Below, piece after piece: positions 1,754-6,334 of a stretch of 6,457 nt of DNA; positions within the stretch are counted from its first letter, which is position 1; every line of letters starts with the position of its first letter. Location: IMG/VR virus record IMGVR_UViG_3300029310_000158; one strand, given 5' to 3'. The translations under genes and the position numbers were made by a program. The stretch is from a virus. Its lineage: Duplodnaviria; Heunggongvirae; Uroviricota; Caudoviricetes. The notes under the pieces are model-generated. The model was not told where the DNA came from. It worked only from the letters and a program-made list of their open reading frames with translations, and ran no database searches.

Positions 1754-4225
1754 TTAAGAATCAGCCTGACTCGGGATCAGTTTTTGCCAGATAACTGAAA
1801 CGTATTTTGCCTGGTAACGGGCGTCATCAAGTGCATTATGGCGCTCACCTTCGAATGGAATAGCCGTTCTGGCATCGAAGTCTATGGCTTTCCCCAGCTC
1901 AACGATTGTGCGTACATCGCGATCGTTGTAGTAACGCCACGGGCAGGGGATCCCCTGCCGTTCGTATGAACGGCGCAAAATCGTGTTGTCGAAGTTGGCT
2001 CCATTTCCCCAAACCTGAACAAAAAATTCACCGGAGTTTTCGTCGATAAATTCTCGCAATTGTAACAGTGCATCATCTAACGGGATTTCATCGGTCATAA
2101 TGGCAGATTGCGCTTCGCGTGATTGCTTAAGCCACCATTTAATGGTGTCCCGATCAATGACTCCGCCAGCAGTTTCCAGATCGATAGTCTTACTAAATTC
2201 CGGTCCCATATCTCCGGTTTGCGGATCGAAAAATATTGCACCTATTGAGATGATCGGGGCATCAGGATTTTTTCCCATGGTTTCAAGGTCGATCATTAGA
2301 TGGTCACACGTCCTGCTGGTGGATGTGATTTCGTGATGACCGTTCACCTTAATTGGGTGATCTGCCGTCTCGCCAGTTTCATTATCGCTATTGTGATGCT
2401 GATTGCCGCCAGTGTTCTCCTTGTGTGGATGTTCAGCGCCTTCCATTTCCTCCGGATCATCTTCCTGAACTTCAACCTGATACTCTTCATCGAATGTTTC
2501 TTGGTATGTTGCGTCGCCCATCACCGCGCCACAATCAGGGCAGTTGCCGCCGCCGGTCTGACCGCAGGCGGTGCAGACTTTTTCCACTTCCTGTTGCGCT
2601 ACTGGTTCAGGCTGTTTCGTTTCTGGCTCGTTTTGTAACGCATTTGGACTGTTTTGTTCCGCTTTTTGGTAGTTCCGTTCCGATTCATGCTGGTTCTGGT
2701 TCACAGAATCGCGGGTCTGGAGCCCCTTAACCCATTTCGGATCATTCGGGTCACTAATCCCTTCAACAAATTCACCACGTGATGCAGCAAGCAACTTATC
2801 GGCGTCAGGCTGGCTGATATTGGCTGCCTGCATAATTTTGTTTACTTCGTCAGCGGTAACTTTTATCGGCTCTGGTTGTTCTGAATCTTCAGCGGTATCT
2901 ACATTTTGCGGTAAGCCCGTGTATGTGCCATTTTTTCGGGCAAAATATTCTTCTTTTGTGATTTCAGTGGCGCCAGCAGCCAGTGCCTTATCCAGACCAG
3001 AGAGTTTGTTTGCGCGACCGTATTTTTCTCCGTCCTTATCTGCGAAGAGGAAATAGAACGGCCCCTCACGCTCTACAGATGGTTCAGCTTCCGGCGCGGT
3101 TTCATTTTTTGGGATATCAGATACCTCAGTTTCCACTGCATCAGTTTGTGTTTCTGATGACTGGAGAACATCAACAGTGCCCAGGTCTGTTTCTTCATTC
3201 TCAAACACGCCCTTTGTCGTCAGGTATTCGCAGATATATTTGTTCAGTGCTACGGGATCTTTGTGAATGTCGATCGGACGCTCACGGACAAGGCCAAAAA
3301 TAGTTTGGCGGTCGTAGCGAAGGGCATCAGGCTGTTTGCGCATTGATGCCGAGATACGCTTCCAGTCTTCGCGGTCGTTGTCGATAACTTCTTTTTTTGC
3401 CCAGCGATGGATGCTGCCGTCAATGTTTCCGGCATCCACATCACTAGGCCAGAGAGCGTAGGCCAGTTCGTCATCCAGTGTTTTCCATGTCTGCTTGTAT
3501 TCGCGATGAATGGCAGCAATGACCGGGCTGATTTTTCCTGTTGAATTTTCAGTGTACTGTTGATTGGCTCTGGCGCGGGCGAGATCAACAACAGACGTGT
3601 ATTTTCCGGTTTCCTTGCGTTCACCTTCGCGACGTTTTTTCCAGATGCGCATCTCTGCCTGAATTTCGGGCCATTTAGCACCAGGAATACATTTATGCTT
3701 AACCCACCCAATGGCGTGCAACTTAAGCTCCGGATACATGGCGTTAACTTCTGGCATTTTCATCAACGCTTCAACGATATGTCCGTCGAATGTTGCCATG
3801 TCTTCCTGCAACAATTCCTGTGCGCTAATAACCATATCAACGGTGATGTTTTCACATGTGTCGAACTTAACCATGACAGCGTTCTGTACTTCAGGGGCCA
3901 GCTTGTCAAAAGTGACGTTCATCGGATCGGATTCAGTCTCAACCGGGACAAAAGAAGCAGACTCCTCATCCCAGCGGTTTTCCTGCATATATTCAGCATC
4001 CCATGAATCGAGGGCAGGGCGGGGTATGCCAGGTTTATCCTCGCAGACAATAAATTTATAAGCGCAGTCCTGAGCAGCCGGATAATGTTCCAGGAATTGC
4101 CAGTGAAATTTTGCTCGAGCACGGCGTTCGTCGCCAGCTTCAATGGCTGTGGCTACAGCCACAGCGCCTTCTTCCCTTGTTGCCAGTTCGTCAGGAATAG
4201 CGGCGCAAATAAAGACTTTACTCAT
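1754..4225 (-). CDS. Large multidomain prophage protein (probable full-length YdfE-like protein): N-terminal domain of unknown function, acidic low-complexity linker with a CxxC-x7-CxxC zinc-ribbon motif, His-rich segment, C-terminal DEDDh (DnaQ-like) 3'-5' exonuclease domain
   Basis: Single ORF 1754..4261 (835 aa from a TTG). The most likely start is ATG at 4223-4225, preceded by GAGGT with an 8-nt spacer (823 aa); ATG at 4238-4240 is another option. Exo I motif MIDLETMG is at about 2282-2290, Exo II WGNGANFDNTIL follows, and Exo III ERHNALDDARYQ is at about 1837-1860. The zinc-ribbon motif CTACGQTGGGNCPDC maps to 2531-2575. By synteny it sits where ydfE lies in K-12 Qin, immediately downstream of ydfD. 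Confidence 0.8.
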   Translation of the reverse strand: MSKVFICAAIPDELATREEGAVAVATAIEAGDERRARAKFHWQFLEHYPAAQDCAYKFIVCEDKPGIPRPALDSWDAEYMQENRWDEESASFVPVETESDPMNVTFDKLAPEVQNAVMVKFDTCENITVDMVISAQELLQEDMATFDGHIVEALMKMPEVNAMYPELKLHAIGWVKHKCIPGAKWPEIQAEMRIWKKRREGERKETGKYTSVVDLARARANQQYTENSTGKISPVIAAIHREYKQTWKTLDDELAYALWPSDVDAGNIDGSIHRWAKKEVIDNDREDWKRISASMRKQPDALRYDRQTIFGLVRERPIDIHKDPVALNKYICEYLTTKGVFENEETDLGTVDVLQSSETQTDAVETEVSDIPKNETAPEAEPSVEREGPFYFLFADKDGEKYGRANKLSGLDKALAAGATEITKEEYFARKNGTYTGLPQNVDTAEDSEQPEPIKVTADEVNKIMQAANISQPDADKLLAASRGEFVEGISDPNDPKWVKGLQTRDSVNQNQHESERNYQKAEQNSPNALQNEPETKQPEPVAQQEVEKVCTACGQTGGGNCPDCGAVMGDATYQETFDEEYQVEVQEDDPEEMEGAEHPHKENTGGNQHHNSDNETGETADHPIKVNGHHEITSTSRTCDHLMIDLETMGKNPDAPIISIGAIFFDPQTGDMGPEFSKTIDLETAGGVIDRDTIKWWLKQSREAQSAIMTDEIPLDDALLQLREFIDENSGEFFVQVWGNGANFDNTILRRSYERQGIPCPWRYYNDRDVRTIVELGKAIDFDARTAIPFEGERHNALDDARYQAKYVSVIWQKLIPSQADS

Positions 4226-4317
4226 TTGTTTTAACCTCATGACAGATTTAAGGATGAACAAATCCCTGCCATTGCTGGCATATAAGAATGAAACCGGATA
4301 TTTATTACGGAACTGTT

Positions 4318-4509
4318 TTAAAGACCTGCCGGGATTTCGATATTATCCTGGTGAATAACTTTATCGACCGGGTAACAGTTACCGGGAATTTTCTGTTCGG
4401 TTGCTGCAGTCATACACTCCTGCATTGTCCTGTGAACACTGACTGCAATATCAACTGGCTCTCCGGAAACAAGAAAAACTGTCAGAACAAGCACAAATGC
4501 TGAATTCAT
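4318..4509 (-). CDS. ydfD: Small membrane/lysis protein YdfD (63 aa)
   Basis: 63-aa ORF MNSAFVLVLTVFLVSGEPVD... with a hydrophobic N-terminal segment. Its ATG (4507-4509) overlaps the dicB stop by 4 nt (ATGA), and aaAGGA lies 8 nt upstream. Matches my recall of K-12 YdfD in sequence and length. The ORF track's longer 81-aa form starts further upstream without support. Confidence 0.85.
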   Translation of the reverse strand: MNSAFVLVLTVFLVSGEPVDIAVSVHRTMQECMTAATEQKIPGNCYPVDKVIHQDNIEIPAGL

Positions 4510-4694
4510 TGTGCACATCCTTTTGGCATCAGACGTAAACGAGCCAGCATTGAAACAATGCATATTTTATTTAATAGCTCCCGTTCTTGTTTTCTCTTGT
4601 TAATGGCATCTTCAGTAAATACAGGGTTACTGATAGTGACACCAATTTCAAAACAACCTTCAGACGTATTAACGTTTGGTAATAACGTTTTCAT
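4506..4694 (-). CDS. dicB: Cell-division inhibitor DicB (62 aa)
   Basis: ATG at 4692-4694 preceded by GAGGG with a 7-nt spacer. The 62-aa product MKTLLPNVNTSEGCFEIGVTISNPVFTEDAINKRKQERELLNKICIVSMLARLRLMPKGCAQ matches my recall of E. coli DicB. The 97-aa ORF in the track is an in-frame upstream extension with no RBS. Confidence 0.9.
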   Translation of the reverse strand: MKTLLPNVNTSEGCFEIGVTISNPVFTEDAINKRKQERELLNKICIVSMLARLRLMPKGCAQ

Positions 4695-4863
4695 TATCGC
4701 GCCCTCAACAATGAGTTTTGTGATGCGGTGCCTGGTGCCTCCAGGTGACGTTAACCAGTTAACAATTAACGCCGGATACAGAGAATCCACCCATAACACT
4801 GTTTTTGGTTTTAACTGTTCCGCGTGCGCTCAGCCGCATTCACCACATCACAAAATTCACTTT

Positions 4864-4906
4864 AAAAAGGGCGGCAGAGCAGTCACGGAGTAAAACTGAT
4901 ACCGCC
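4864..4906 (-). terminator. Rho-independent terminator forming the DicF 3' end (GGCGG...CCGCC stem, then U5)
   Basis: On the minus-strand transcript, GGCGG pairs with CCGCC (with an internal CAG/CUG helix) and is followed by UUUUU (plus-strand aaaaa at 4864-4868). Confidence 0.7.
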
Positions 4907-4921
4907 AAACGTCACCAGAAA
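4869..4921 (-). ncRNA. dicF: DicF small regulatory RNA (53 nt; antisense regulator of ftsZ and other mRNAs)
   Basis: The reverse complement of 4869-4921 reads TTTCTGGTGACGTTTGGCGGTATCAGTTTTACTCCGTGACTGCTCTGCCGCCC, followed by TTTTT. This matches my recall of DicF, and it lies between ydfC and dicB as in Qin. Confidence 0.85.
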
Positions 4922-5262
4922 ATTGATAACAGAGGGCGTTGCAGCGGGGTTGTCACTTAAGCGTATGGTCAACCTGACAACCCGGTGTCCTCAACGGGGG
5001 AAGGAATAACCCCGCCATACTTACCGCCGCGCCATTTCGCGGATTGCCACAACCGGAAGCGCACGGTCGACGAAAATTTAACGACAGGCTATCTATGAAC
5101 CAGCTACCTCGCCGTGCGCTTTCGCGTTATGGTCTGACTTTTCAGGGAAATATCCTTTCAGTAAACTGTCAGTGCCGGATGCTCACCCGTGTCCGGCGCA
5201 CGCACTCCACCTCACCCGTGGAGAACTCCTTAATTACTAACCTTAGCTTTGTTGATTAGCTA

Positions 5263-5481
5263 CTAACGCGGGTATGTAATCATTCTGGCAATGCTTAATG
5301 CCGCTGCTTTTTCCAGATTGGTGATATCCTGCTCCAGAGCGGACAGATTTTCAGCCTGCTTAGCCCTGGCTTCATTAGCCCATTTCAGATCCTGCGCTGC
5401 ATTAATTTTCTGGCGCATCCACTCATAAAGTTCATCATCGGTATAGTCTGGCGCGATGATGACGGGTTCTCGTTTCTGCAT
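5263..5481 (-). CDS. ydfC: Small prophage protein YdfC (72 aa, predicted helical/coiled-coil)
   Basis: 72-aa ORF MQKREPVIIAPDYTDDELYEWMRQK... with ATG at 5479-5481 and AGGA 6 nt upstream. Position and length match K-12 ydfC. Confidence 0.85.
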   Translation of the reverse strand: MQKREPVIIAPDYTDDELYEWMRQKINAAQDLKWANEARAKQAENLSALEQDITNLEKAAALSIARMITYPR

Positions 5482-5510
5482 ACTGATTCCTCGCGGTGCT
5501 GTTTCGCTTA

Positions 5511-5639
5511 TCAGCCGTTAGATTTTGCCGAACTGGAAAGCGCCTGTTTAAACTCACTGAAGCTGAGAGCTTCTTCGCCTTCGGCAAGGCCTTCGAAGTA
5601 TTCTTCGTAAGCCTTTTCCATGATTGTGTCGAAATCCAT
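5511..5639 (-). CDS. ydfB: Small acidic prophage protein YdfB (42 aa)
   Basis: Absent from the supplied ORF track because it is short; translated by hand. ATG at 5637-5639 is preceded by AGGTGAG with a 4-nt spacer. Product: MDFDTIMEKAYEEYFEGLAEGEEALSFSEFKQALSSSAKSNG, stop TGA at 5511-5513. It starts 1 nt after the ydfA stop. Length matches K-12 YdfB. Confidence 0.75.
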   Translation of the reverse strand: MDFDTIMEKAYEEYFEGLAEGEEALSFSEFKQALSSSAKSNG

Positions 5640-5640
5640 A

Positions 5641-5796
5641 TCACTCACCTGAGTTTCTTTCCAGCCAGCGACGGGCACCATTTTCGGTTTTAAACGTTTT
5701 GCTTTTGGTATACGTCATTGCGGTGAACGTGCCGTCCTGGTTTGGAAACACGCCGTACACCAGAGATTCGTTGTTGCCAAGATCGATAGTATCCAT
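5641..5796 (-). CDS. ydfA: Small prophage protein YdfA (51 aa)
   Basis: ATG at 5794-5796 preceded by GAGG with a 5-nt spacer. Product: MDTIDLGNNESLVYGVFPNQDGTFTAMTYTKSKTFKTENGARRWLERNSGE. It is the first gene of the dicB operon. The track's 77-aa form uses an upstream TTG with no RBS. Confidence 0.85.
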   Translation of the reverse strand: MDTIDLGNNESLVYGVFPNQDGTFTAMTYTKSKTFKTENGARRWLERNSGE

Positions 5797-5962
5797 GCTG
5801 ACCTCATTTCCCCTTAACGCTGGGGTAGCGGAACTGTTTGCTGAGAACACCGTGCGGTGTGTTGATGCAAACAAGATTAGCCATGACTAACATATCGGTC
5901 AAGTGATTTTGTATGCTATAGCTAACATAATTGATGTGGTAAAAGATAACTCATTGATGATG
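5797..5962 (-). promoter_or_regulatory. dicB-operon promoter/operator region (PdicB) between the dicA stop and ydfA
   Basis: Candidate sigma70 elements on the minus strand: -35 TTGACC (plus 5897-5902), 17-nt spacer, -10 TAATCT (plus 5874-5879). An operator-like 6-4-6 imperfect palindrome ATTAGCcatgACTAAC (5876-5891) overlaps the -10 and matches 13 of 16 positions of the palindrome in the dicA-dicC region. A second palindromic cluster GCTATAGC/TAGCTAAC lies at 5915-5926. Confidence 0.5.
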
Positions 5963-6334
5963 TTATCTTTTATTTGTCCGCTGACGGGCTTTTAGTAATT
6001 CTTCAAAGAGTTTATTGAAGTTTTTTACTCGAGCTCGCATTTCGGCGAGCTGGGTATCCTGTTCTGATTCTGGCAGTGCATTAAACAGCTCAAGGAGCTC
6101 TAGTTCTTTGGGGGATAAGGCAACTGGCTTCTCAACAGGTGGTGTTGGTTGCTTGTCTTCATCGCCANNNNNNNNNNAAAGGTTCTTCCCTGTAGGTTCA
6201 CTATCACCCCGTTCCCATTGTGATACAGACACATGGGAGATTTTCAGGGCTTTAGCAAGAGACCTTTGGGTGTGTTTGAGGTTTTTCCGACGATACCTGA
6301 TGCGTTCGCCGATAGTTAAATTTTTTGTTTCCAT
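5963..6334 (-). CDS. dicA: Prophage repressor DicA (HTH XRE family, P22 C2-like), reading frame interrupted by an N run
   Basis: ORF METKNLTIGERIRYRRKNLKHTQRSLAKALKISHVSVSQWERGD... has an HTH motif and the C-terminus ...KNFNKLFEELLKARQRTNKR. It matches my recall of DicA (135 aa); here it is 123 codons, 4 of them X from the 10 N at 6168-6177. No obvious SD precedes the ATG at 6332-6334. Confidence 0.88.
   Translation of the reverse strand: METKNLTIGERIRYRRKNLKHTQRSLAKALKISHVSVSQWERGDSEPTGKNLXXXXGDEDKQPTPPVEKPVALSPKELELLELFNALPESEQDTQLAEMRARVKNFNKLFEELLKARQRTNKR
6168..6177. other. Run of 10 ambiguous bases (N) - assembly gap or masked segment inside dicA
   Basis: Ten literal n characters in the sequence. 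The flanking frame is preserved, but the ORF is about 12 codons shorter than the DicA length I recall, so real sequence (roughly 46 nt) is probably missing. Confidence 0.95.

What the first reader, a model, noticed from the sequence alone, without database searches (positions are those of the whole stretch)
1754..4261. Orphan multidomain DEDDh exonuclease-like protein in the position of a recombination exonuclease, with no annealase partner
The slot between the host-killing genes and xis usually holds a 5'-3' exonuclease plus a single-strand annealing protein (Red exo/bet, RecE/RecT). Here there is one large protein. Its C-terminal ~190 aa carry DEDDh motifs typical of 3'-5' proofreading-type exonucleases, which is the wrong polarity for generating 3' recombinogenic tails. 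No RecT/Bet/Erf-like gene is present. Upstream of the nuclease domain are a long acidic, Q/E/T-rich linker, a CxxC-x7-CxxC zinc ribbon and a His-rich stretch. The architecture points to a function other than classical recombination, such as anti-defence, degradation of host or competitor nucleic acid, or RNA processing. To my knowledge the family is essentially uncharacterised.
Basis: partly seen in the sequence, partly recalled or inferred. Interest (0 to 1): 0.6.

Follow-up and report, generated by a model that had tools for sequence, protein, structure and literature searches.

The report
RecE-like phage protein, swapped nuclease
This is the intact form of the E. coli prophage gene ydfE, a large early phage protein built on the same scaffold as the recombination enzyme RecE but ending in a DNA-trimming domain of opposite polarity, with no annealing partner gene; it occurs in most E. 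coli genomes, and I found no test of its function.

Summary
Window 1754-4225 (-) encodes one 823-aa protein; the true start is the ATG at 4225, not the TTG at 4261. Its last 183 aa are a DEDDh 3'-5' exonuclease (Pfam PF16473, 226 bits; D646, E648, D746, H796, D801). The CxxC-x7-CxxC ribbon, His-rich stretch and acidic regions are all present, and no annealase gene lies in the window.

The protein is not an orphan. Residues 1-256 are identical to the IS2-truncated K-12 pseudogene ydfE. Residues 262-627 are homologous to RecE 278-592, part of the RecE region outside its nuclease domain. Only the RecE PD-(D/E)XK nuclease is replaced.

Relatives join the same scaffold to different heads: RecE nuclease (followed by recT), DEDDh, a Rad52-type annealase, or an unknown head. 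In 60 DEDDh loci from many genera, none had a RecT, Bet, Erf or Rad52-like gene within 7 kb.

The DEDDh head occurs in 4223 of 5426 complete E. coli genomes; the K-12-type RecE head occurs in 1743. dN/dS is 0.1-0.35 in most domain comparisons.

I favour a scaffold-tethered 3'-5' DNA exonuclease expressed from the DicA-repressed early operon that processes DNA ends. This function is inferred, not shown. I rate it a new variant of a known kind, of moderate interest.

The parts
1754..4225 (-). Gene for the 823-aa protein (intact ydfE; stop codon at 1754-1756). Start is the ATG at 4225 with a GAGG ribosome-binding site, not the upstream TTG at 4261.
   Evidence: ORF list. Start and RBS. 100% identity over 255 aa to the K-12 ydfE remnant. 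100% identical CDS in phage PhiR42_1.
3458..4225 (-). YdfE-type N-terminal region (aa 1-256). AF2 gives a confident alpha/beta subdomain at aa 1-95 and a less confident helical subdomain at about 105-205. This is one of two alternative N-modules in the family; the other is the RecE type.
3191..3457 (-). Conserved helical 'core' (aa 257-345), equivalent to RecE 278-365. It is the part shared by nearly all family members whatever their head.
   Evidence: BLASTP against RecE. phmmer architecture table. pLDDT 86-92 over aa 247-340. Invariant residues A257, P260, D262, R274, K277, S292, R296, L302 and others in alignment A6. dN/dS 0.12-0.13.
2921..3070 (-).
   Evidence: Shared with relatives that carry Rad52-type and unknown heads, such as P0126 and P0131.
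2711..2815 (-). Conserved motif region ...LLAASRGEFVEGISDPNDPKWVKG... (aa 471-505), shared with K-12 RecE and more distant relatives.
   Evidence: BLASTP against RecE. Present in P0255 and P0252.
2501..2581 (-). CxxC-x7-CxxC zinc-ribbon-like motif (C551, C554, C562, C565), nearly identical in K-12 RecE (CNACGQTGGDNCPDCG).
2306..2500 (-). Acidic, His-rich connector (aa 576-640; 28% D+E, 7 His). Homology to RecE ends here, at RecE residue 592, so this is the junction where the nuclease head is exchanged.
   Evidence: At the DNA level, 78% identity to recE ends at gene nt 1867.
1757..2305 (-). DEDDh 3'-5' exonuclease head (aa 641-823) of the DexA/Rv2179c family, with catalytic residues D646, E648, D746, H796 and D801.
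   Evidence: Pfam PF16473, 226.5 bits. PDB 8KEL (T4 DexA), E 1.5e-6. DexA catalytic residues from PMC12153337. Conservation in alignment A6.
4318..5874 (-). Upstream genes of the same early operon, given as context: ydfA (5641-5874), ydfB (5511-5681), ydfC (5263-5481), DicF sRNA (4869-4920), dicB (4506-4694) and ydfD (4318-4509).
   Evidence: Pfam and NCBIfam hits. Rfam DicF, 76.7 bits. Same gene order as K-12 Qin. Polycistronic transcription from dicBp, repressed by DicA (PMC10448788).
115..1681 (-). Excisionase (1430-1681) and integrase (115-1410) directly downstream. Only 72 bp separate the exonuclease stop from xis, which leaves no room for a partner gene.
   Evidence: Pfam DUF1233, Arm-DNA-bind_2 and Phage_integrase. 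ORF list.

Best explanation
The gene is the intact form of ydfE, the last gene before xis-int in the early-left (PL-like, DicA-repressed) operon of Qin-type lambdoid phages. Its product belongs to a modular family that also contains RecE.

The family shares an N-terminal scaffold: a YdfE-type or RecE-type N-domain, a conserved helical core, then variable linkers with short conserved motifs and a Zn ribbon. This scaffold carries an exchangeable C-terminal 'head'. Here the head is a DnaQ-like DEDDh exonuclease of the DexA/Rv2179c family instead of RecE's PD-(D/E)XK 5'-3' nuclease.

Proposed mechanism. After prophage induction the protein is made together with DicB, DicF and YdfD. The scaffold places or tethers the head where full-length RecE would act, at linear DNA ends. 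The head then removes nucleotides from 3' ends by two-metal catalysis (D646, E648, D746, D801, with H796 as general base).

The outcome would be trimming or resection of phage or other linear DNA that leaves 5' overhangs. These can pair by single-strand annealing, or be handed to host functions, without a dedicated phage annealase.

What is shown: the architecture, the homologies, the catalytic residues, the operon position, the absence of an annealase, the abundance and purifying selection. What is inferred: that the substrate is DNA, that the scaffold targets DNA ends, and that the role is recombination or end processing.
For: Architecture:
- PF16473 matches end to end.
- RecE aa 278-592 are homologous to aa 262-627 (E 2e-61), and the NCBIfam exoVIII model matches at positions 271-600 only.
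- The N-terminus is identical to K-12 ydfE.

Modularity:
- A HMMER scan of 1.84e9 representatives finds only 171 clusters.
- The 65 long representatives divide into 15 with a RecE nuclease head, 11 DEDDh, 19 Rad52-type and 13 with an unknown head.
- Phage 813R8 joins a RecE-type N-domain to the same DEDDh head, 97.8% nt-identical over 1112 nt.

The Rad52 head was verified:
- Stand-alone relatives are 45-50% identical to it (E about 1e-57).
- Five of them pass the PF04098 gathering score.
- An AF2 model of one (pLDDT 90.4) hits human RAD52 N-terminal domain structures in all 26 top ranks, with a best E of 1e-6 and probability 1.00.

The slot tracks the head:
- RecE-head genes are followed by recT.
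- DEDDh-head genes are followed directly by xis.
- 0 of 60 DEDDh loci in many genera have an SSAP, Exo, Gam or Abc2 gene within 7 kb, and all positive controls were detected.

[quoted passage not shown] An E. coli homologue, EcD, degrades T4 DNA (PMC12153337).

Full-length RecE differs from its nuclease domain alone in boosting linear-linear SSA recombination, and its N-terminal region is otherwise of unknown function (PMC11611040).

There is a precedent for annealase-free joining driven by a 3'-5' exonuclease in E. coli, namely XthA (PMC6379578).

The gene appears functional:
- dN/dS is 0.11-0.35 in most domain comparisons with the two E. albertii copies, with one value of 0.41 in a nearly identical segment.
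- It is intact in five sequenced Escherichia phage genomes in GenBank: Tritos, HannyBb, Evi, mEp460_ev081 and PhiR42_1.
- Full-length-type matches occur in 3489 of 5426 E. coli genomes.

Operon: the dicBF transcript covers ydfABC, dicF, dicB and ydfDE and is repressed by DicA (PMC10448788).
Against: - No biochemical or genetic data exist for this protein.
- The founding member of PF16473, Rv2179c, is described as an exoribonuclease, so an RNA substrate is not excluded.
- Sharing a genomic slot and a scaffold with recombination proteins is circumstantial. Mosaic exchange in lambdoid phages can place unrelated functions in the same slot.
- The mid-region conserved with RecE is also conserved at the DNA level (78%), so part of that conservation may reflect recent recombination and not function.
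- A 3'-5' nuclease destroys the 3' tails used by RecA or RecT for strand invasion.
Confidence: 0.5

Rival explanations
1. It is a weapon against other phages or foreign DNA, like the 'HREX' exonuclease EcD. The DEDDh head would degrade invading (possibly modified) phage DNA, giving superinfection exclusion or an advantage in competition during induction.
For: Plasmid-borne EcD, an E. coli DexA homologue, degrades 5hmC-containing DNA and the T4 genome and protects against T4 (PMC12153337). DicB in the same operon already blocks some phages (title of PMC6832061). The head is very abundant in E. coli prophages, up to 8 copies per genome.
Against: The operon is repressed by DicA in lysogens and switches on in only about 1% of cells (PMC10448788), so the protein would be absent when an infecting phage arrives.

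The residues that paper uses to define EcD-like enzymes are not matched. The DexA D90 position is Asp (D718) here, whereas EcD has Ala. DexA W152 aligns with Y766 (alignment).

EcD is a different sequence: its primers give MIDTET... and ...TIPETYD. PADLOC gives only a 23-bit generic DEDDh hit. This reading also does not explain the RecE scaffold.
Confidence: 0.2
2. It breaks down host DNA or salvages nucleotides during lytic growth, which is the first described role of T4 DexA.
For: The catalytic domain is homologous to DexA. DexA's role in host DNA scavenging is described in PMC12153337. The gene is co-expressed with the host-damaging products DicB, DicF and YdfD.
Against: From general knowledge, lambdoid phages are not known to degrade the host chromosome. 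No endonuclease partner that would create ends is present in the operon. An 640-aa scaffold is unnecessary for a scavenging enzyme, and stand-alone heads of about 190 aa exist.
Confidence: 0.1
3. It is an RNA 3'-5' exonuclease, like M. tuberculosis Rv2179c, acting on phage or host transcripts, for instance in processing or turnover of the dicBF mRNA and DicF.
For: The Pfam family is named after an exoribonuclease. RefSeq sometimes names the protein '3'-5' exoribonuclease domain-containing protein'. DicF is cut out of the same transcript.
Against: DicF processing is attributed to RNase III and RNase E (PMC10448788). By sequence the head is closer to the DNA enzyme DexA, which phmmer finds in the PDB at E 1.5e-6, while no Rv2179c entry appears at E<=0.01. 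The scaffold's other heads (RecE nuclease, Rad52) act on DNA.
Confidence: 0.07
4. It is a conventional RecE-type (exonuclease VIII) 5'-3' recombination nuclease, as many records annotate it.
For: It is annotated 'exodeoxyribonuclease VIII' in PhiR42_1, Tritos and 813R8. The central region really is homologous to RecE.
Against: There is no PD-(D/E)XK domain: no PF12684 or PF06630 hit, and the BLASTP alignment stops at RecE residue 592. The NCBIfam exoVIII score is 281.6 against a cut-off of 1269. No recT follows.
Confidence: 0.02
5. It is a decaying mosaic remnant without function.
For: The K-12 copy is cut by IS2E. Some copies are interrupted by IS3 (hit H1) or frameshifted (L015, L065). A deletion variant exists, P0002.
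Against: dN/dS is 0.1-0.35 in most domain comparisons. The catalytic residues are invariant. The gene is intact in five sequenced phage genomes and in thousands of bacterial genomes.
Confidence: 0.03

Closest known systems
RecE (exonuclease VIII) of the Rac prophage, E. coli K-12
   Same: Same slot in a lambdoid early-left operon, upstream of xis-int. Homologous central region, RecE 278-592, about 39% identical overall and much higher over the last ~160 aa. That stretch includes the AASRGEFV.GISDPNDPKWVKG motif, the Zn ribbon and the acidic, His-rich connector. The overall layout is also shared: a large non-catalytic N-terminal part with the nuclease at the C-terminus.
   Different: RecE's PD-(D/E)XK 5'-3' nuclease (aa 564-866) is replaced by a DEDDh 3'-5' nuclease. 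The first ~256 aa are of another type, although the RecE-type N-domain combined with a DEDDh head also exists (phage 813R8). No recT follows. The score is far below the NCBIfam exoVIII cut-off.
T4 DexA (exonuclease A; PDB 8KEL/8KEN) and the E. coli homologue EcD ('HREX', Kang et al. 2025, PMC12153337)
   Same: The catalytic domain belongs to the same family (PF16473). The DEDDh residues align (DexA D7, E9, D119, H186, D191). Both are phage or prophage encoded, and the characterised members act on DNA 3' ends.
   Different: DexA and EcD are single-domain proteins, whereas here the domain is the head of an 823-aa scaffold protein. DexA W152 aligns with Y766, and the D90 position is Asp and not EcD's Ala. 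EcD's termini (MIDTET......TIPETYD) differ from this domain (MIDLET......LIPSQADS). That paper never mentions a prophage (0 occurrences) and, in the sections read, no multidomain architecture.
Rv2179c of Mycobacterium tuberculosis (founding member of Pfam PF16473)
   Same: Same Pfam family with the DEDDh motifs.
   Different: Rv2179c is a stand-alone chromosomal protein described as an exoribonuclease. No PDB entry for it reaches E<=0.01 in a search with this protein.
YdfE of E. coli K-12 (Qin prophage pseudogene b1577)
   Same: It is the same gene: 255 of 255 aligned residues are identical, with the same neighbours dicB and ydfD.
   Different: The K-12 copy is cut after about 256 codons by IS2E. 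It therefore lacks the core, the mid-region and the nuclease head, so studies in K-12 could not see the function.
Scaffold-Rad52 fusion proteins (e.g. the 710-aa 'hypothetical protein' WCS67724 of Stenotrophomonas phage BUCT708; PHROG 2489)
   Same: The same YdfE-type N-domain and core, in the same early-operon slot before xis/int.
   Different: The head is a Rad52-type single-strand annealing domain instead of a nuclease.

Membership tests
DnaQ-like DEDDh 3'-5' exonucleases, Rv2179c/DexA family (Pfam PF16473) | Profile match above the curated cut-off over the whole domain | tested here: met
   226.5 bits against a cut-off of 27, profile positions 2-177 of 177. PF00929 RNase_T scores only 21.4 against 24.
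DnaQ-like DEDDh 3'-5' exonucleases, Rv2179c/DexA family (Pfam PF16473) | Exo I/II/III motifs with D, E, D, D and the His of the DEDDh subtype | tested here: met
   D646 and E648 (MIDLET), D746 (GANFDN), H796 and D801 (RHNALDD) align with DexA D7, E9, D119, H186 and D191. They are invariant or at least 90% conserved in 10 homologues.
DnaQ-like DEDDh 3'-5' exonucleases, Rv2179c/DexA family (Pfam PF16473) | 3'-5' exonuclease activity, and whether the substrate is DNA or RNA | not testable with these tools
   Needs enzyme assays. Only homologues have been assayed (PMC12153337).
RecE / exodeoxyribonuclease VIII (NCBIfam NF007259; Pfam PF06630 and PF12684) | Full-length equivalog score | tested here: not met
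   281.6 bits against a cut-off of 1269. Only model positions 271-600 of 877 match.
RecE / exodeoxyribonuclease VIII (NCBIfam NF007259; Pfam PF06630 and PF12684) | C-terminal PD-(D/E)XK 5'-3' nuclease domain | tested here: not met
   No PF12684 or PF06630 hit. BLASTP homology ends at RecE residue 592. phmmer with RecE 564-866 hits only the shared His-rich connector.
RecE / exodeoxyribonuclease VIII (NCBIfam NF007259; Pfam PF06630 and PF12684) | Homologous non-catalytic central region (core, RGEF motif, Zn ribbon) | tested here: met
   E 2e-61 over 366 columns. 78% nt identity over gene nt 1425-1867.
Two-component phage recombinases (exonuclease plus single-strand annealing protein: Red, RecET, and similar) | An adjacent SSAP gene (RecT/Bet, Erf or Rad52/Sak type) | tested here: not met
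   None in the window. None in the whole phage PhiR42_1 for RecT, Bet and Rad52-like; Erf was tested only on the other loci. None in 60 related loci within 7 kb, while the controls Rac, mEp237, a Klebsiella phage, lambda, P22 and BUCT708 were all detected. Limit: single-sequence phmmer queries, and other SSAP types were not tested.
Two-component phage recombinases (exonuclease plus single-strand annealing protein: Red, RecET, and similar) | An SSAP domain fused or embedded in the protein itself | tested here: not met
HREX / EcD-type 5hmC-DNA-specific defence exonucleases (Kang et al. 2025) | Loss of the tetramer-forming Asp (DexA D90; Ala in EcD) | tested here: not met
   The HMMER alignment puts D718 at DexA D90 and P715 at S87. 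The alignment is only moderately confident in this stretch.
HREX / EcD-type 5hmC-DNA-specific defence exonucleases (Kang et al. 2025) | Conserved 5hmC-recognition residues (DexA W152 and D169) | tested here: inconclusive
   W152 aligns with Y766, which is aromatic but not Trp. D169 lies beyond the aligned stretch.
HREX / EcD-type 5hmC-DNA-specific defence exonucleases (Kang et al. 2025) | Protection against modified-DNA phages | not testable with these tools
   Needs infection assays. The operon is DicA-repressed in lysogens (PMC10448788).

The most novel reading that the evidence does not exclude
The N-terminal part shared by RecE and YdfE is a general delivery platform for exchangeable DNA-transaction heads: a 5'-3' nuclease, a 3'-5' nuclease, a Rad52 annealase, possibly a ParB-like HTH, and an unknown head. 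The DEDDh version is the commonest in E. coli. It would define a third kind of phage recombination or end-processing function that works by 3'-5' resection without any phage annealase. This would at last give the 'unknown' RecE N-terminal region a testable role, such as targeting to DNA ends, to the replisome or to a host partner.
Probability: 0.25. Interest if true: 0.7.

Novelty: new variant of a known kind. Interest (0 to 1): 0.45.

Why it matters
RecET is a workhorse of recombineering, yet a 2023 review still calls the 560-600 aa that precede the RecE nuclease 'of unknown function'. Two observations change the question about that region. The same scaffold carries three different DNA-processing heads in nature. 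The form with a 3'-5' exonuclease and no annealase is several times commoner in E. coli than the K-12-type RecE head (9040 against 1835 genomic places).

The question is no longer 'what does the N-terminus add to a 5'-3' nuclease' but 'what does this platform recognise'. Head-swap experiments can test that directly.

There are three further consequences:
- It flags a widespread mis-annotation ('exodeoxyribonuclease VIII').
- It explains why K-12, whose copy is cut by IS2, gave no clue to the function.
- It places the bacterial 'DexA homologues' recently proposed as defence enzymes in their probable genomic setting, since most Escherichia matches to this domain lie in prophage exonuclease genes.

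Tried and rejected
- **EcD identity.** I tried to identify EcD (HAK9828821.1) and see whether it is this domain. Its cloning primers give MIDTET... and ...TIPETYD. The 23-mer is absent from IMG/VR and from the metagenome collection, and neither primer matches any fetched locus with up to 3 mismatches. The gene may have been codon-optimised, so this stays unresolved.
- **Rad52 head by sequence alone.** A PDB profile search found nothing. The question was settled by Pfam hits on stand-alone relatives and by AF2 plus Foldseek.
- **Diverse homologues for the N-terminal MSA.** Both homologous-protein runs were swamped by E. coli fragments. The AF2 model therefore rests on 15 sequences, and its middle subdomain is weak.
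- **Promoter and terminator scan.** Fewer promoter-like sites than in shuffled sequence, and nothing upstream of the gene on the minus strand. This is consistent with read-through from dicBp but says nothing on its own.
- **PADLOC.** Only a 23-bit generic DEDDh hit.
- **Literature.** One literature search was lost to a word-start match ('full-length receptor').
- **xis/int context in other genera.** Single-sequence phmmer was too insensitive to judge it.


Full report
**What is in the window.** The window is the left arm of a Qin-type lambdoid prophage of E. coli, read on the minus strand. In order it holds:
- a DicA/cI-like repressor (5963-6334, containing a 10-N masked run);
- ydfA, ydfB and ydfC;
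- the DicF sRNA (4869-4920; Rfam 76.7 bits);
- dicB and ydfD;
- the large gene, then xis (1430-1681) and int (115-1410).

Gene order is the same as in K-12 Qin and in the sequenced phages PhiR42_1, Tritos and 813R8. A published study shows that ydfABC, dicF, dicB and ydfDE form one transcript from dicBp. DicA represses it, much as cI represses lambda PL (PMC10448788).

**Check of the observation.** The ORF lister gives 1754-4261. The ATG at 4225 has a GAGG 9 nt upstream and yields 823 aa starting MSKVF. This agrees with the K-12 ydfE remnant and with the CDS length annotated in PhiR42_1.

The C-terminal 183 aa match Pfam PF16473 over the whole profile (226.5 bits). They also match the solved T4 DexA structure 8KEL (E 1.5e-6). 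The catalytic residues named for DexA (PMC12153337) correspond to D646, E648, D746, H796 and D801, and these are conserved in ten homologues of 33-58% identity.

The CxxC-x7-CxxC motif, the His-rich stretch and the acidic, Q/E/T-rich stretches are present as described. No annealase gene lies in the window or in the complete phage.

**What the protein really is.** It is not an orphan.
- Residues 1-256 are 100% identical to the K-12 pseudogene ydfE, which is cut there by IS2E.
- Residues 262-627 are homologous to RecE 278-592 (E 2e-61).
- The NCBIfam exoVIII model matches only at its positions 271-600 and far below its cut-off.
- Homology to RecE stops exactly at the connector before the nuclease. 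At the DNA level it runs at 78% identity up to gene nt 1867.

The protein therefore shares the middle of RecE's non-nuclease region, behind an N-domain of a different type, with the nuclease exchanged. A 2023 review states that RecE's N-terminal region is of unknown function and that full-length RecE specifically boosts linear-linear single-strand-annealing recombination (PMC11611040).

**A modular family.** An exhaustive HMMER search with aa 1-345 against 1.84 billion representative proteins gave only 171 clusters. I classified the 65 long representatives with phmmer and Pfam. All share the helical core (aa 257-345 here), preceded by either a YdfE-type or a RecE-type N-domain. After the core they carry different heads:

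| Head | Representatives |
|---|---|
| RecE-type PD-(D/E)XK | 15 |
| DEDDh | 11 |
| Rad52-type annealase (Pfam-less in the fused proteins) | 19 |
| Pfam-less acidic domain | 13 |
| Truncated | 7 |

Both N-domain types occur with both nuclease heads. Phage 813R8 has a RecE-type N-domain and a DEDDh head that is 97.8% nt-identical to the window's.

I recognised the 19-member head as Rad52-like from its motifs and then tested that reading. Stand-alone relatives are 45-50% identical to it (E about 1e-57), and several sources name them Rad52/Rad22 family proteins. Five of them pass the PF04098 gathering score. An AF2 model of one (pLDDT 90.4) hits human RAD52 N-terminal domain structures in all 26 top ranks (best E 1e-6, probability 1.00). 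A phage example is the 710-aa protein of Stenotrophomonas phage BUCT708, which sits in the same slot.

**The partner gene follows the head.** RecE-head genes are followed by recT in Rac, mEp237 and a Klebsiella phage. DEDDh-head genes are followed directly by xis.

I scanned 60 DEDDh loci from species-representative genomes, including Escherichia, Klebsiella, Kluyvera, Citrobacter, Enterobacter, Dryocola, Leclercia, Erwinia and Providencia. About 25 hold scaffold-DEDDh proteins and about 35 hold stand-alone heads of roughly 190 aa. None has a homologue of three RecT types, Bet, Erf, the Rad52-like profile, lambda Exo, Gam or Abc2 within 7 kb, whereas all positive controls were found. The limit of this test is that the queries were single sequences and other SSAP types were not covered.

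**Abundance and selection.**
- The whole gene has megablast matches in 4800 of 5426 complete E. coli genomes, and matches covering at least 80% of it in 3489.
- The head alone occurs in 4223 genomes at 9040 places, up to 8 per genome.
- The K-12-type RecE nuclease head occurs in 1743 genomes at 1835 places.
- RefSeq calls the protein 'exonuclease' or '3'-5' exonuclease'. Phage records often call it 'exodeoxyribonuclease VIII', which the domain content contradicts.
- PHROG 2082 is exactly this protein. Precomputed Pfam accessions PF27430 and PF27432 cover the N-terminus but are missing from the local library.
- Against two E. albertii copies, dN/dS is 0.11-0.35 in most domain comparisons, linker-rich middle included. 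One value reaches 0.41, in a DEDDh segment with almost no differences.

**How it most likely works.** What is shown is a scaffold shared with RecE and with Rad52 fusions, an intact DEDDh active site, a position in the PL-like operon and the lack of an annealase.

From this I infer the following. After induction the protein is made with DicB, DicF and YdfD. The scaffold brings the head to linear DNA ends, or to whatever full-length RecE recognises. The head then trims 3' ends.

[quoted passage not shown] The 3'-5' polarity rules out making 3' invasive tails but not annealing of complementary 5' overhangs. E. coli XthA does this in in vivo cloning (PMC6379578).

I put about 0.5 on 'scaffold-tethered 3'-5' DNA exonuclease for end processing or recombination'. 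The identity and architecture part is near certain.

**Rival explanations.**
- Defence or competition (0.2). EcD is a precedent. Against this, the operon is repressed in lysogens, the residues said to define EcD-like enzymes are not matched (D718 at DexA D90, Y766 at W152), and EcD is a different sequence.
- Host-DNA scavenging (0.1).
- RNA exonuclease (0.07). The family's name supports it, but the protein is closer to DexA by sequence, and DicF processing is assigned to RNase III and RNase E.
- Conventional RecE (0.02), refuted by the domain content.
- Decaying remnant (0.03), contradicted by dN/dS and by the intact copies in sequenced phages.

**Novelty and interest.** The head family and the RecE scaffold are both known, the gene is annotated in thousands of genomes, and PHROG and Pfam have entries for it. 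I found no experimental work on the full-length protein. I also found no description of the head-swap pattern: a RecE review treats the N-terminus as unknown, and the DexA/EcD paper does not mention the prophage context.

I rate it a new variant of a known kind. Interest is 0.45: not astonishing for mosaic phage proteins, but it turns the long-standing question of the RecE N-terminal region into a testable head-swap problem and corrects a common annotation.

Noticed in passing
window 4869-4920 (-): DicF antisense sRNA, a full-length Rfam RF00039 match (76.7 bits, E 3.7e-16), lies between ydfC and dicB as in K-12 Qin.
   Followed up: partly
window 6168-6177: A run of 10 N (masked bases) lies inside the DicA/cI-like repressor ORF (5963-6334, -), so that protein cannot be read completely.
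   Followed up: no
window 4318-4563 (-): The 81-aa ORF for the DUF1482 protein (ydfD) probably starts at the internal ATG at 4509. That gives 63 aa, as in K-12, and overlaps the dicB stop codon by 4 nt.
   Followed up: partly
relatives P0131, P0159, P0255 and others; L007 4974-7106 (Stenotrophomonas phage BUCT708): Proteins of about 700 aa with the same N-terminal scaffold end in a Rad52-type single-strand annealing domain. Databases label them 'exonuclease' (PHROG 2489) or 'hypothetical'. In BUCT708 the next gene encodes a Gp157-family protein.
   Followed up: yes
relatives P0126, P0214, P0252 and others (13 of 65 representatives): A fourth head class is an acidic C-terminal region of about 250 aa with no Pfam hit (phrog_26058, unknown function). 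A short motif, G-D/E/N-G-x-F-S-V/I-x-N/G-L, precedes the heads in the third and fourth classes and appears in the consensus of the aligned DEDDh proteins. Its role is unknown.
   Followed up: no
P0390 (Enterobacter cloacae, 555 aa): A scaffold protein with precomputed Pfam PF17762, named 'ParB/RepB/Spo0J family partition protein' by UniRef. It may represent a fifth, non-nuclease head.
   Followed up: no
P0002 (527 aa); compare window aa 386-640: A natural variant joins aa 1-385 directly to the DEDDh head and lacks the whole middle region, including the RGEF motif, the Zn ribbon and the His-rich connector.
   Followed up: no
L010 3991-4563 (E. coli plasmid pEND_Eco 18005); about 35 of loci L013-L072: Stand-alone DEDDh proteins of about 190 aa (about 60% identical to the head) occur among ead/Ea22 and DUF551 genes of other prophages and on a 205-kb plasmid. 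The head therefore also circulates on its own.
   Followed up: partly
E. coli complete genomes: The DEDDh head is found at 9040 places in 4223 of 5426 genomes, the K-12-type RecE nuclease head at 1835 places in 1743 genomes. Several phage and genome records (for example PhiR42_1, Tritos, 813R8) label the DEDDh protein 'exodeoxyribonuclease VIII'.
   Followed up: partly
L016 (contig binned as a Veillonella parvula MAG), L034 (Geobacteraceae MAG), L056 (Streptomyces), L059 (Chryseobacterium): Enterobacterial-type copies of the gene or head (57-69% identical) sit in assemblies labelled as unrelated taxa. This looks like mis-binning or contamination and not true distribution.
   Followed up: no
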